Below are positions 3,099 through 50,117 of a stretch of DNA of 64,000 bases, in pieces; the first letter of the stretch is position 1, and each line of letters begins with the position of its first letter. The notes under the pieces are model-generated. The model was not told where the DNA came from. It saw nothing but the letters and a program-made list of their open reading frames with translations, and searched no databases. Origin of the DNA: Escherichia coli O157:H7 (lineage in GTDB: Bacteria > Pseudomonadota > Gammaproteobacteria > Enterobacterales > Enterobacteriaceae); assembly GCF_013167455.1 (NCBI RefSeq), contig NZ_CP038328.1. One strand, written 5' to 3'. Made by a program: the position numbers and the translations under genes.

Positions 3099-3313
3099 TG
3101 TAGCAGGATGCGGCGTTGACCCCGCATCCGGCAATCAACGTCTGATGCGACGCTAGCGCGTCTTATCAGACCTACAACAGCTGCCACATGTCGGCTGAGG
3201 TGCTCACGCCGCATCCGGCAATCAACGTCTGATGCGACGCTTGCGCGTCTTATCAGACCTACAACCGTTGCCACATGTAGGCTGGATAAGGCGTTCACGC
3301 CGCATCCGGCAAT
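3099..3313. repeat. REP/BIME cluster (about 2.5 tandem units, period 87-91 bp)
   Basis: Repeated CCGCATCCGGCAATCAACGTCTGATGCGACGCT..GCGTCTTATCAGACCTACAAC units, the classic REP palindromes, lying between convergent genes. Confidence 0.9.
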
Positions 3314-35652: not shown

Positions 35653-35750
35653 GCCTGATGCGCTATGCTTATCAGGCCTACACGTATCCTGCAATATATT
35701 GAATTTGCAGGTTTTTGTAGGCCGGATAAGGCGTTCACGCCGCATCCGGC
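35653..35750. repeat. BIME (pair of inverted REPs)
   Basis: GCCTGATGCGCTATGCTTATCAGGCCTAC ... GTAGGCCGGATAAGGCGTTCACGCCGCATCCGGC. Confidence 0.9.
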
Positions 35751-48581: not shown

Positions 48582-48712
48582 TCCCTTCTCCACACCGTTG
48601 CCGCGTTGCGCATTCTACTTTGCGAGTCTGCTCCAGAAAATAAATCAAAGTCAGATCAATGCGTTGTGTTTATTTAATGGGGATTTACGATGGCGGGACA
48701 GCATGGGGCTGT

Positions 48713-48857
48713 AACGGTGAAGCCCTCACCGAAGCGAGGGCTTAAAGGAGAAGGGTTATGATGCGACTTGTCATCATACTGATTGTACTGTTACTGATAA
48801 GTTTCGGAGCTTATTAACAGTCAGTCTCAGGGGAGGAGTCATCCTCCCTTACCCTTA
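48713..48857 (-). ncRNA. sibC: SibC-like antisense antitoxin RNA, copy 1 (ends approximate)
   Basis: Minus-strand promoter TTGACA (48892-48887), 17-nt spacer, TAATTT (48869-48864). The transcript would be fully antisense to ibs and end after the hairpin GCCCTC-gcttcggt-GAGGGC. The predicted ~145 nt fits the published ~140-nt Sib RNAs. Confidence 0.6.
48758..48817 (+). CDS. ibsC: type I toxin IbsC-like peptide, copy 1
   Basis: 19-codon ORF MMRLVIILIVLLLISFGAY, translated by hand, with SD AAGGAG 8 nt upstream. It differs from K-12 IbsC (..ISFSAY, from memory) at one residue. Confidence 0.8.
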   Translation: MMRLVIILIVLLLISFGAY

Positions 48858-49105
48858 CTCACTAAATTAGGTCAAAGAATCAACGATGTCAATCAGGGCG
48901 ATGCGGGGTGCATCGCCCTGAACCGAACTTTTTGATAGCCACTTCATCGCCCACGTTTACTGCCGTAATTAATCCCTTATTCCTGCAATGTATGTCTGCC
49001 TTACATGACGTTTTACGAGTGCGCTCGAAGAAAAGATTTAAAGGTAGATCAATGCGTTGTGGTTATTTAAAGAGAGTTTACGATGGCAGGGCAGCATGGG
49101 GCTGT

Positions 49106-49250
49106 AACGGTAAAGCCCTCACCGAAGCGAGGGCTTGAAGGAGAAGGGTTATGATGCGACTTGTCATCATACTGATTGTACTGTTACTGATAAGTTTGCC
49201 AGCTTATTAACAGTCAGTCTCAGGGGAGGAGTCATCCTCCCTTACCCTTA
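49106..49250 (-). ncRNA. SibC-like antisense antitoxin RNA, copy 2 (ends approximate)
   Basis: Same promoter (TTGACA at 49285-49280) and terminator hairpin as copy 1, shifted by 393 bp. Confidence 0.6.
49151..49210 (+). CDS. type I toxin Ibs peptide, copy 2
   Basis: 19-codon ORF MMRLVIILIVLLLISLPAY with the same SD as copy 1. It differs from copy 1 only in the codons for residues 16-17. Confidence 0.8.
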   Translation: MMRLVIILIVLLLISLPAY

Positions 49251-49310
49251 CTCACTAAATTAGGTTAAAGAATCAACGATGTCAATCAGGGCGATGCAGG
49301 TGTATCGCCC

Positions 49311-49859
49311 TTACCACTCCCAGACTTTCGACGGTGTAACCACCGCAGGAAGAGGGATATCCCACTCTTCAACGGGGAGTTTTTCCACCAACTGACAATC
49401 ATGCGCATAACCCACCGGTTGCGTTTTATAGTGCTGCCAGTTTTGTAAGGTCCGATCATAAAAACCACCGCCCATTCCCAGGCGCTGACCGTACTCATCA
49501 AAGGCGACCAGCGGTGTGATCAGCACGTCTAATCGGGAAAGGGGGAGCACGTCACGCACATCCAGTTTTGGCTCATGGATTTTCAACCTGTTCATCACCA
49601 GTTCGCTTTGCGGATGGTAATTCAGGAACAGCAAATTACCGGCACTAAAGGGATGCAAAACTGGAAGATATACGCGCTTACCGGCGCGCCAGAGTTGTTC
49701 TATAAGCGGCTGGGTGTCGAGTTCACCATCAAAAGAGAGGAATACAGCGACCGTATGCGCCATCACCACCGGGGGATAAGTCATCATCCGGGTAGCGGCT
49801 TGTTGACCCATTTCCTGCTGTTGTTCCGGCGTTAACGCACGACGACGTTGCCGAATCAT
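49311..49859 (-). CDS. ygfA: 5-formyltetrahydrofolate cyclo-ligase
   Basis: Recognised as YgfA (Fau). The start is set at MIRQRRRALTPEQ (182 aa, the K-12 length). An upstream ATG at 49913 (MTQLPELPL, 200 aa) is also possible. The ORF-track extension beyond that runs into ssrS. Confidence 0.88.
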   Translation of the reverse strand: MIRQRRRALTPEQQQEMGQQAATRMMTYPPVVMAHTVAVFLSFDGELDTQPLIEQLWRAGKRVYLPVLHPFSAGNLLFLNYHPQSELVMNRLKIHEPKLDVRDVLPLSRLDVLITPLVAFDEYGQRLGMGGGFYDRTLQNWQHYKTQPVGYAHDCQLVEKLPVEEWDIPLPAVVTPSKVWEW

Positions 49860-49932: not shown

Positions 49933-50117
49933 GGGAATCTCCGAGATGCCGCCGCAGGCTGTAACCCTTGAACCCTTGGTTCAAGGTGAATGTGTCGTCG
50001 CAGTTTTAAGGCTTCTCGGACGGACCGAGCATGCTCACCAACCGCGGAGCGCCACATTCTTGTGGTATGAAATATCGGCTCAGGGGACTGGCCCGCTTGC
50101 GAACATCTCAGAGAAAT
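49933..50117 (-). ncRNA. ssrS: 6S RNA
   Basis: The minus strand reads AUUUCUCUGAGAUGUUCGCAAGCGGGCCAGUCCCCUGAGCCGAUAUUUCAUACCACAAGAAUGUGGCGCUCCGCGG...GGCAUCUCGGAGAUUCCC, matching E. coli 6S RNA as I remember it. Ends are accurate to within 1-2 nt. Confidence 0.95.

What the first reader, a model, noticed from the sequence alone, without database searches (positions are those of the whole stretch)
48653..49311. Tandem pair of IbsC/SibC-like type I toxin-antitoxin modules in the serA-ygfA spacer
Two ~268-bp units lie 393 bp apart. Each encodes a 19-aa hydrophobic Ibs peptide (MMRLVIILIVLLLISFGAY and ...ISLPAY) with an AAGGAG SD. Each also has, on the opposite strand, a near-consensus promoter (TTGACA-17-TAATTT) that would drive a ~145-nt fully antisense Sib RNA. 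From memory, K-12 has a single sibC/ibsC at this locus, its tandem pairs being sibA/B and sibD/E elsewhere. The two ORFs differ only in the codons for residues 16-17, so the antisense RNAs are almost identical across the toxin mRNA. This raises the question of cross-repression versus the cognate-only discrimination reported for the K-12 Sib RNAs.
Basis: partly seen in the sequence, partly recalled or inferred. Interest (0 to 1): 0.6.

Follow-up and report, generated by a model that had tools for sequence, protein, structure and literature searches.

The report
Tandem ibsC/sibC toxin-antitoxin pair, already known
This E. coli O157:H7 spacer holds two adjacent copies of the well-known Ibs/Sib small-toxin/antisense-RNA module where K-12 has one; the arrangement is already annotated and is found in a third of E. 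coli genomes.

Summary
Two 289-nt direct repeats lie 393 bp apart between serA and fau (ygfA). Each encodes a 19-aa Ibs peptide on the + strand and a full-length Sib antisense RNA on the - strand (Rfam RF00113, 134 bits each; gathering score 56). K-12 has one copy here.

It is not new. RefSeq annotates both ORFs as Ibs toxins. Fozo et al. 2010 counted seven Ibs genes in O157:H7 Sakai, against five in K-12. The inter-copy spacer is present in 1867 of 5426 complete E. coli genomes (34%). Outgroups (E. albertii, E. ruysiae, Citrobacter, Salmonella, Klebsiella, Kluyvera) have one copy, so the tandem arose within E. coli/Shigella.

One detail is worth keeping. The two 141-nt Sib RNAs differ at only five positions. 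Four of these fall in the two target-recognition domains defined by Han et al. 2010: +50-52 in the centre of the TRD1 loop and +113 at the edge of TRD2. Cross-pairing costs about 13 kcal/mol at TRD1, as in K-12 pairs that discriminate. At TRD2 it costs only about 2.3 kcal/mol, against 9-13 in K-12. Han showed that either domain suffices, so I predict cross-repression through TRD2. This is an inference and is untested.

The parts
48619..48907 (.). Repeat unit 1 (serA-proximal ibs/sib module)
   Evidence: the repeat finder family D1, reference copy
49012..49300 (.). Repeat unit 2 (fau-proximal ibs/sib module)
   Evidence: the repeat finder family D1, 91% identical to unit 1, spacing 393. The core 48653-48904 is far more similar than the edges.
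48664..48691 (+). Putative ibs-1 promoter, TTGTGT-16-TACGAT
   Evidence: Inferred. It is placed relative to the ibsC +1, derived from Han 2010 (159-nt mRNA with an 18-nt 5' overhang beyond the Sib 3' end). The sequence is identical to K-12 here.
48698..48856 (+). ibs-1 mRNA (159 nt, by homology to K-12 ibsC mRNA)
   Evidence: Han 2010 mRNA ends transferred to the window. Not measured in O157.
48745..48750 (+). ibs-1 Shine-Dalgarno AAGGAG, which is the target of Sib J1/7 (TRD2)
   Evidence: Sequence; pairing register
48758..48817 (+). ibs-1 ORF, MMRLVIILIVLLLISFGAY*
   Evidence: RefSeq CDS ibsC WP_071524576.1 at the same place.
48716..48856 (-). Sib-1 RNA (141 nt; +1 = 48856)
   Evidence: 5' end AAGGGTAAGGG as in Han 2010's SibC constructs; mapping; Rfam hit; fold
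48789..48811 (-). Sib-1 TRD1 (+46..+68). The variable triplet +50-52 (CCG) is at 48805-48807, in the P5 loop.
   Evidence: TRD definition from Han 2010
48742..48758 (-). Sib-1 TRD2 (+99..+115). The variable +113 (U) is at 48744, the last base of the single-stranded J1/7.
   Evidence: Han 2010
48864..48892 (-). sib-1 promoter TTGACA-17-TAATTT
   Evidence: Identical to the K-12 sibC promoter in Han's oligo SibCKO1. Not called by the generic scan.
48908..49011 (.). Inter-copy spacer, diagnostic of the two-copy state
   Evidence: Present in 1867 of 5426 complete E. coli genomes. No significant similarity to the outer flanks beyond the repeat edges.
49057..49084 (+). Putative ibs-2 promoter, TTGTGG-16-TACGAT
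   Evidence: Inferred by register with copy 1. The upstream sequence differs from K-12 at several positions, so its activity is unverified.
49091..49249 (+). ibs-2 mRNA (159 nt, by homology)
49151..49210 (+). ibs-2 ORF, MMRLVIILIVLLLISLPAY* (SD AAGGAG at 49138-49143)
   Evidence: RefSeq CDS 'Ibs family toxin' WP_100635201.1.
49109..49249 (-). Sib-2 RNA (141 nt; +1 = 49249). TRD1 is 49182-49204 with the triplet GGC at 49198-49200. TRD2 is 49135-49151 with C113 at 49137.
49257..49285 (-). sib-2 promoter TTGACA-17-TAATTT, with one G->A change in the spacer relative to copy 1 and K-12
   Evidence: The same spacer variant occurs in single-copy strains 3385 and Combat11I9.
48894..48920 (.). GC-rich hairpin just beyond the sib-1 promoter. 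It is the duplicated counterpart of the hairpin at 49288-49311 that abuts the fau stop codon.
   Evidence: Local alignment 24/27 identical, score 37 vs a shuffle maximum of 21. That the copy-2 hairpin is the fau terminator is inferred.

Best explanation
The region holds two adjacent, complete copies of the ibsC/sibC type I toxin-antitoxin module. In each copy, a + strand mRNA of about 159 nt encodes a 19-aa hydrophobic membrane toxin (Ibs). A 141-nt Sib RNA made from a TTGACA-17-TAATTT promoter on the - strand is fully complementary to that mRNA. As shown for K-12 SibC, pairing is expected to start at two exposed elements. One is the P5 loop (TRD1), which pairs with codons 15-18. The other is the single-stranded J1/7 (TRD2), which pairs with the Shine-Dalgarno. 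Pairing then spreads, blocks translation and leads to mRNA decay. The two O157 Sib RNAs differ at only 5 of 141 nt: +50-52 in the centre of the TRD1 loop, +113 at the 3' edge of TRD2, and +138 in the tail. My inference is that TRD1 is specific to each module but TRD2 is effectively shared. Each Sib should therefore also repress its neighbour's ibs mRNA through the SD-covering TRD2, and Sib-1 acting on ibs-2 (a G.U wobble at +113) should work better than Sib-2 acting on ibs-1 (a C.A mismatch). Shown here: the anatomy, family membership, K-12 single copy, population frequency, and positions of the differences. Inferred: transcription of both copies in O157, toxicity of both peptides, and cross-repression (sub-claim confidence about 0.6).
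For: Two full-length RF00113 matches. The peptides are 18/19 and 17/19 identical to K-12 IbsC, and both are annotated as Ibs toxins in RefSeq. The sib promoters are the same as K-12's, apart from one spacer change in copy 2. K-12 SibC, Sib-1 and Sib-2 give the same MFE structure. In Sib-1 and K-12 SibC, +48-55 is fully unpaired (P >= 0.96). In Sib-2 the ensemble gives only 0.45-0.64 for +48-51. J1/7 (+107-113) is fully unpaired (P >= 0.95) in all three. The differences are at +50, 51, 52, 113 and 138 only. Han 2010: TRD1 is +46-68 (essential part +46-53) and TRD2 is +99-115; either suffices; SibC with only TRD1 swapped to SibD's still represses ibsC; both must be changed to lose repression. 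Calibration: cross-pair ddG at TRD1 is +12.9/+13.3 kcal/mol, like the K-12 SibC/SibD non-cognates (+11.2/+13.8). At TRD2 it is only +2.2/+2.5, against +8.7 to +13.0 for K-12 non-cognates. In all five two-copy E. coli genomes aligned, the two copies differ at 2-3 nt of +49-52. The two further two-copy genomes (S. flexneri, E. coli SCPM-O-B-8794) also differ there. Among 15 units, 4 of 13 variable sites fall in the 8-nt P5 loop (p = 0.0026) and 11 of 13 are unpaired (p = 1.7e-4). An EDL933 Cappable-seq study reports exact TSSs for SibA-E in O157:H7.
Against: I could obtain no direct transcript evidence for the second copy. The EDL933 TSS table held here is truncated before this locus, and the two Sib RNAs are identical for their first 49 nt, so short reads cannot tell them apart. 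The ibs-2 upstream region differs from K-12 at several positions, so the ibs-2 promoter may be weaker or inactive. Neither peptide allele (FGAY, LPAY) has been tested for toxicity. No single-nucleotide TRD2 mutant data exist, so a C.A mismatch at +113 in a 7-nt seed could matter more than the duplex energy suggests. The SibD/SibE pair, reported as discriminating (Han 2010's summary of Fozo 2008, which I could not read), also retains long complementarity around TRD2. S. flexneri copy 2 carries a frameshift, which shows that copies do decay in some lineages.
Confidence: 0.85

Rival explanations
1. The two modules are fully insulated, with cognate-only repression. The 3-nt TRD1 loop difference together with the single +113 difference in the 7-nt J1/7 seed prevents productive initiation on the neighbour's mRNA, as reported for the K-12 Sib family.
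For: Han 2010 states that K-12 Sib RNAs repress only cognate ibs mRNAs (except ibsA), and that SibD does not bind ibsC at 37 C despite extensive complementarity. All differences between the O157 copies inside the pairing region fall in TRD1 or TRD2. Every tandem sampled differs in the TRD1 loop. K-12 SibD and SibE keep a 36-50-nt contiguous run through J1/7.
Against: The TRD2 cross-pair penalty is only 2.2-2.5 kcal/mol, against 9-13 in K-12 non-cognates. Sib-1 on ibs-2 has only a G.U wobble at +113. In DSM103246-type tandems TRD2 is identical between copies, so insulation cannot be a general property of tandems at this locus. Han's SibC1d (TRD1 swapped only) still repressed ibsC.
Confidence: 0.3
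2. One copy is a silent or decaying duplicate, and only one module is functional in O157.
For: The ibs-2 upstream region has diverged from the K-12-type promoter context. S. flexneri copy 2 has a frameshifted ibs. O157 strain TR01 lacks both modules, and many lineages carry only one copy, so a second copy is dispensable.
Against: Both ORFs, both SDs, both sib promoters and both Sib folds are intact. The sib-2 promoter variant is the one present in single-copy strains, where it must work. The exact copy-2 allele is conserved in 306 O157-lineage genomes. The Pro17-type C-terminus is widespread in the family, including the outgroups.
Confidence: 0.1
3. The repeat is an assembly or chance artefact and not a real tandem.
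For: None found.
Against: The region is 100% identical in multiple complete O157:H7 genomes, and the spacer is present in 1867 complete genomes. There are two independent covariance-model hits at E ~1e-28.
Confidence: 0.01

Closest known systems
E. coli K-12 ibsC/sibC (rygC, QUAD1c) between serA and fau/ygfA
   Same: Same locus, same architecture and same sib promoter. The Sib RNA is 134-135/141 identical (7 differences each) with the same predicted fold, and the peptides are 18/19 and 17/19 identical.
   Different: K-12 has one module and this window has two. The TRD1 core is GCUG in K-12, against UCCG (copy 1) and UGGC (copy 2). K-12 TRD2 equals copy 2, while copy 1 has U113.
K-12 tandem pairs sibA/ibsA-sibB/ibsB and sibD/ibsD-sibE/ibsE
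   Same: Two ibs/sib modules in one intergenic region at spacings of about 335 and 376 bp, against 393 here. The paralogues differ in the same P5-loop hotspot.
   Different: The K-12 paralogues also differ clearly in TRD2 (3 nt for D/E, with ddG 9-12.5 kcal/mol) and at 11-39 positions overall. The O157 pair differs at 5 positions, with a TRD2 ddG of about 2.3.
Han et al. 2010 engineered SibC1d (SibC carrying SibD's TRD1 only)
   Same: A Sib that differs from its parent by a 3-nt change in the TRD1 loop with TRD2 essentially unchanged. This is exactly how Sib-2 relates to Sib-1.
   Different: The pair here is natural and not engineered, the triplet is +50-52 rather than +49-51, and there is one extra change at +113.
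zorO-orzO / zorP-orzP tandem type I TA of EHEC (Fozo 2010; Wen 2014)
   Same: A tandemly duplicated type I toxin-antitoxin locus that is present in O157:H7 and absent from or reduced in K-12.
   Different: It is an unrelated toxin family, and its antitoxin is divergently encoded and pairs with the 5' UTR rather than being a fully overlapping antisense RNA.

Membership tests
Sib antitoxin RNA (Rfam RF00113 SIB_RNA) | Sequence and structure match to the family covariance model above the curated gathering score | tested here: met
   134.2 and 134.4 bits against gathering 56, full model 1-147
Sib antitoxin RNA (Rfam RF00113 SIB_RNA) | Encoded antisense to, and fully overlapping, a short hydrophobic ibs ORF | tested here: met
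   Sib-1 48856-48716 spans ORF 48758-48817, and Sib-2 49249-49109 spans 49151-49210
Sib antitoxin RNA (Rfam RF00113 SIB_RNA) | SibC-type secondary structure (P1-P7) with an exposed P5 loop and a single-stranded J1/7 | tested here: met
   The MFE structures of Sib-1 and Sib-2 are identical to K-12 SibC. J1/7 (+107-113) is fully unpaired (P >= 0.95) in both. The P5 loop (+48-55) is fully unpaired in Sib-1 but only 0.45-0.64 unpaired over +48-51 in Sib-2. This is a prediction only, with no probing data.
Sib antitoxin RNA (Rfam RF00113 SIB_RNA) | Own promoter and an abundant transcript of about 140 nt | not testable with these tools
   The promoter sequence equals K-12 sibC's. Cappable-seq in EDL933 reports SibA-E TSSs but does not resolve the second copy, and the held supplement is truncated.
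Ibs type I toxin | 18-19-aa hydrophobic peptide with the MM(K/R)xxIIL...SFxxY pattern, preceded by an SD | tested here: met
   MMRLVIILIVLLLISFGAY and MMRLVIILIVLLLISLPAY against K-12 IbsA-E. AAGGAG lies 7 nt upstream. RefSeq names both as Ibs toxins. An HMM scan was not possible because the peptides are under 20 aa.
Ibs type I toxin | Toxic (membrane depolarisation) when overexpressed | not testable with these tools
   This is known for K-12 IbsC (review PMC8309996). The FGAY and LPAY alleles are untested. Pro17 is common in the outgroups.
Type I toxin-antitoxin system | The antisense RNA represses toxin synthesis by base pairing | not testable with these tools
   Each cognate pair has perfect 141-nt complementarity. 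Repression is shown only for K-12.

The most novel reading that the evidence does not exclude
The serA-fau tandems are natural 'half-insulated' paralogue pairs. Selection keeps the TRD1 loop (which is also Ibs codons 16-17) different between co-resident copies, while TRD2 remains shared. Each toxin mRNA then has one private and one common repression handle, giving built-in redundancy against loss of one antitoxin. If so, the O157 pair (5 differences in 141 nt) would be the minimal natural system for measuring how few nucleotides set antisense specificity in vivo.
Probability: 0.3. Interest if true: 0.45.

Novelty: already known. Interest (0 to 1): 0.22.

Why it matters
As a genome feature it adds nothing, because the two genes are annotated and the family and mechanism are textbook type I toxin-antitoxin biology. 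Its limited value is as a natural test case. The two co-resident modules differ almost only in the two elements that Han et al. identified as specificity determinants, and one of those elements is barely diverged. That allows a direct and inexpensive test of whether a 3-nt loop change alone insulates paralogous antisense RNAs, or whether neighbouring type I modules back each other up. It also matters practically, because RNA-seq or TSS reads shorter than about 50 nt cannot be assigned to Sib-1 versus Sib-2.

Tried and rejected
1. I hypothesised that the tandem is ancestral and that single-copy strains are recurrent collapses. The reasons were that single-copy units look like chimeras (copy-1-type left, copy-2-type right, with different crossover points) and that K-12 IbsC is the same protein as the fau-proximal copy in some tandems. 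Outgroups reject this at genus level. E. albertii, E. ruysiae, two other Escherichia lineages, Citrobacter, Salmonella diarizonae, Klebsiella and Kluyvera all have one copy. The chimera pattern is expected under either polarity. Within E. coli the polarity remains open. A collapse in the K-12 lineage is plausible but not shown.

2. Transcript evidence for copy 2. The EDL933 Cappable-seq TSS table is stored only for roughly the first 0.6 Mb of the genome, so this was a dead end.

3. Fozo et al. 2008 (the original cross-repression matrix and strain comparison) and Mok et al. 2010 (IbsC mutagenesis) are not held. Fozo 2010's supplement is not held either.

4. The generic sigma-70 scan did not call the sib promoters. 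I did not count this against them because the sequence equals the experimentally used K-12 sibC promoter.

5. Origin of the 104-nt inter-copy spacer. Beyond the degenerate repeat edges and the duplicated hairpin, I found no similarity to the flanks above shuffle controls, so this is unresolved.

6. My first extraction scripts used wrong offsets. This was corrected, and the coordinates in this report are the corrected ones.

Full report
**What is there**

The window matches E. coli O157:H7 chromosomes at 100% identity. Between the serA stop (48529) and the fau/ygfA stop (49311) lies a 289-nt direct repeat, at 48619-48907 and 49012-49300. The copies are 91% identical and spaced 393 bp apart.

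Rfam finds a full-length SIB_RNA (RF00113) in each unit on the minus strand, at 134 bits against a gathering score of 56. On the plus strand each unit carries AAGGAG, a 7-nt spacer, and a 19-codon ORF:
- 48758-48817, MMRLVIILIVLLLISFGAY
- 49151-49210, MMRLVIILIVLLLISLPAY

The only overstatement is 'near-consensus promoter', because TAATTT matches TATAAT at 3 of 6 positions and a generic scan skips it. It is nevertheless the K-12 sibC promoter sequence (Han 2010 oligo).

**Transcript boundaries**

I placed these by homology to K-12.
- Han et al. 2010 (PMC2943612) start SibC at AAGGGTAAGGG and give it 141 nt.
- They give the ibsC mRNA 159 nt, with its 3' end opposite Sib +1 and an 18-nt 5' overhang.
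- Transferred to the window, Sib-1 is 48856-48716 and Sib-2 is 49249-49109.
- The ibs mRNAs are 48698-48856 and 49091-49249.
- The ibs promoters would be TTGTGT-16-TACGAT (copy 1, identical to K-12) and TTGTGG-16-TACGAT (copy 2, in a diverged context). Both are inferred and not measured.

**Is it known?**

Yes.
- RefSeq/PGAP annotates both ORFs in O157:H7, as 'IbsC' WP_071524576.1 and 'Ibs family toxin' WP_100635201.1.
- K-12 has one ibsC here.
- Fozo et al. 2010 (PMC2887945) report seven Ibs genes in O157:H7 Sakai and discuss lineage-specific duplication of ibs-sib loci.
- A probe made from the inter-copy spacer hits 1867 of 5426 complete E. coli genomes (34%). Of these, 308 match at >=99% (the O157 lineage) and 1552 at 90-95% (for example O104:H4).
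- 5423 of 5426 genomes retain at least one copy.
- One O157:H7 strain, TR01, has a 576-bp deletion that removes both modules.

**Evolutionary context**

I anchored on Fau and fetched the locus from 80 species representatives, then ran Rfam on 20 of them.
- One sib next to fau: E. ruysiae, E. albertii, Escherichia sp. E1V33 and MOD1-EC7003, Pseudocitrobacter, four Citrobacter species, Klebsiella spallanzanii, Salmonella diarizonae and Kluyvera.
- Two copies: only an E. coli representative and Shigella flexneri.
- None: E. whittamii, C. sedlakii, S. arizonae, Lelliottia, Enterobacter and Pseudescherichia.

So one copy is ancestral and the tandem arose within E. coli/Shigella.

Both O157 alleles also exist as the single copy in sister lineages. 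E. ruysiae carries FGAY/UCCG and E1V33 carries LPAY/UGGC with C61. Within complete E. coli genomes, the exact LPAY allele is confined to 306 O157-lineage genomes.

**The detail worth keeping**

Sib-1 and Sib-2 differ at only five of 141 positions: +50, +51, +52 (CCG vs GGC), +113 (U vs C) and +138.

Han et al. defined two independent target-recognition domains. TRD1 is +46-68, with the essential part at +46-53 in the P5 loop. TRD2 is +99-115, including the single-stranded J1/7 at C107-C113, which pairs with the SD. Swapping G49CU51 and the TRD2 sequence to SibD's re-targets SibC. Either domain alone suffices, and repression is lost only when both are changed.

K-12 SibC, Sib-1 and Sib-2 give the same MFE structure. 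The variable triplet sits in the middle of the 8-nt P5 loop, and +113 is the last base of J1/7. In the ensemble, the P5 loop is fully unpaired in Sib-1 and K-12 SibC, but +48-51 is only 0.45-0.64 unpaired in Sib-2. J1/7 is fully unpaired in all three.

Across 15 units from 10 E. coli genomes, the +49-52 core has four alleles: GCUG, UCCG, UGGG and UGGC. These correspond to the peptide endings FSAY, FGAY, FPAY and LPAY. In all five two-copy genomes in that set, the copies differ at 2-3 of these positions. The two further two-copy genomes (S. flexneri, E. coli SCPM-O-B-8794) also differ there. Four of 13 variable sites lie in the 8-nt loop (hypergeometric p = 0.0026), and 11 of 13 lie in unpaired positions (p = 1.7e-4). 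These sites are not phylogenetically independent, so the p-values are indicative only. The same hotspot distinguishes K-12 SibA-E, as Han et al. already noted.

**Predicted behaviour**

| Cross pair | +50-52 | +113 | +138 | Longest contiguous pairing |
|---|---|---|---|---|
| Sib-1 on ibs-2 | three mismatches | G.U wobble | mismatch | 85 nt (+53 to +137) |
| Sib-2 on ibs-1 | three mismatches | C.A mismatch | G.U wobble | 60 nt (+53 to +112) |

Duplex energies of the isolated TRD segments, calibrated on K-12 pairs that experiments show to be discriminated:

| Domain | O157 cross-pair penalty (kcal/mol) | K-12 non-cognate penalty (kcal/mol) |
|---|---|---|
| TRD1 | +12.9 / +13.3 | +11.2 / +13.8 (SibC/SibD) |
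| TRD2 | +2.2 / +2.5 | +8.7 to +13.0 |

In DSM103246-type tandems the TRD2 penalty is zero. Han's SibC1d, which had only TRD1 swapped, still repressed ibsC. The best-supported inference is therefore that TRD1 is private to each module and TRD2 is shared, so the two Sib RNAs cross-repress, possibly asymmetrically. I put this at about 0.6. The alternative is full insulation through the +113 mismatch in a 7-nt seed, and it remains open because no single-nucleotide TRD2 data exist.

**Limits**

I could not obtain transcript evidence for the second copy. An EDL933 Cappable-seq study reports exact TSSs for SibA-E, but its stored table is truncated. In any case, the two Sib RNAs are identical for their first 49 nt. 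Toxicity of the FGAY and LPAY alleles is untested, although Pro17 is common in outgroup Ibs peptides. Fozo 2008 and Mok 2010 were not available.

**Verdict**

The residual interest is that this is a natural minimal-divergence pair for testing Sib specificity rules.

Noticed in passing
L011 (E. coli O157:H7 strain TR01) 1560-1800; corresponds to window ~48704-49279: This O157:H7 isolate has a clean 576-bp deletion that removes both ibs/sib modules, from ibs-1 +6 to the sib-2 -35 box. It also carries a non-O157 fau allele (WP_000192751.1). Only about 3 of 5426 complete genomes lack the locus.
   Followed up: partly
L013 (Shigella flexneri SFBU0723), second module; sib at L013 3129-3278: The fau-proximal ibs copy has a 1-nt deletion in the TRD1-core codons. 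The ORF reads MMRLAIILIVLLLISFQLINSQ..., so it is a frameshifted or extended toxin while the Sib RNA is still a full Rfam match.
   Followed up: no
window 48908-49011 and copy 2 (49012-49300) versus L003 (O104:H4): The inter-copy spacer and copy 2 are unusually divergent between the O157 and O104:H4-type lineages: the spacer is 95% identical over only 71% of its length, and Sib-2 differs at 6 of 141 nt. Copy 1 is nearly identical between them (1 of 141). The O157 copy-2 allele (UGGC, C61) recurs as the single copy in Escherichia sp. E1V33. This suggests old polymorphism, introgression or gene conversion at this locus.
   Followed up: partly
window 49934-50117 (-): 6S RNA (ssrS), Rfam RF00013 at 139.8 bits, immediately upstream of fau on the same strand, as in K-12.
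   Followed up: no
window 3189-3259 (+) and 35674-35716 (-): Rfam matches just above gathering score to naRNA4 (RF02564, 63 bits vs 59.5) and ES036 (RF02751, 47.3 bits vs 37.6).
   Followed up: no
L017 (Escherichia whittamii), L059 (Salmonella arizonae), L048 (Citrobacter sedlakii): No Sib match next to fau in these species, although close relatives have one, so there is lineage-specific loss at this locus. L048 also has a C4 antisense RNA match (RF01695, 5032-5120), which suggests a P1/P7-type prophage nearby.
   Followed up: no
L054 and L056 (record titles): A record labelled Vagococcus sp. WN89Y encodes an enterobacterial Fau (82% identity), which is probably contamination or mislabelling. 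A 775-kb 'plasmid unnamed6' of Klebsiella sp. WOUb02 carries the fau locus, so it may be a chromid or a misassembly.
   Followed up: no
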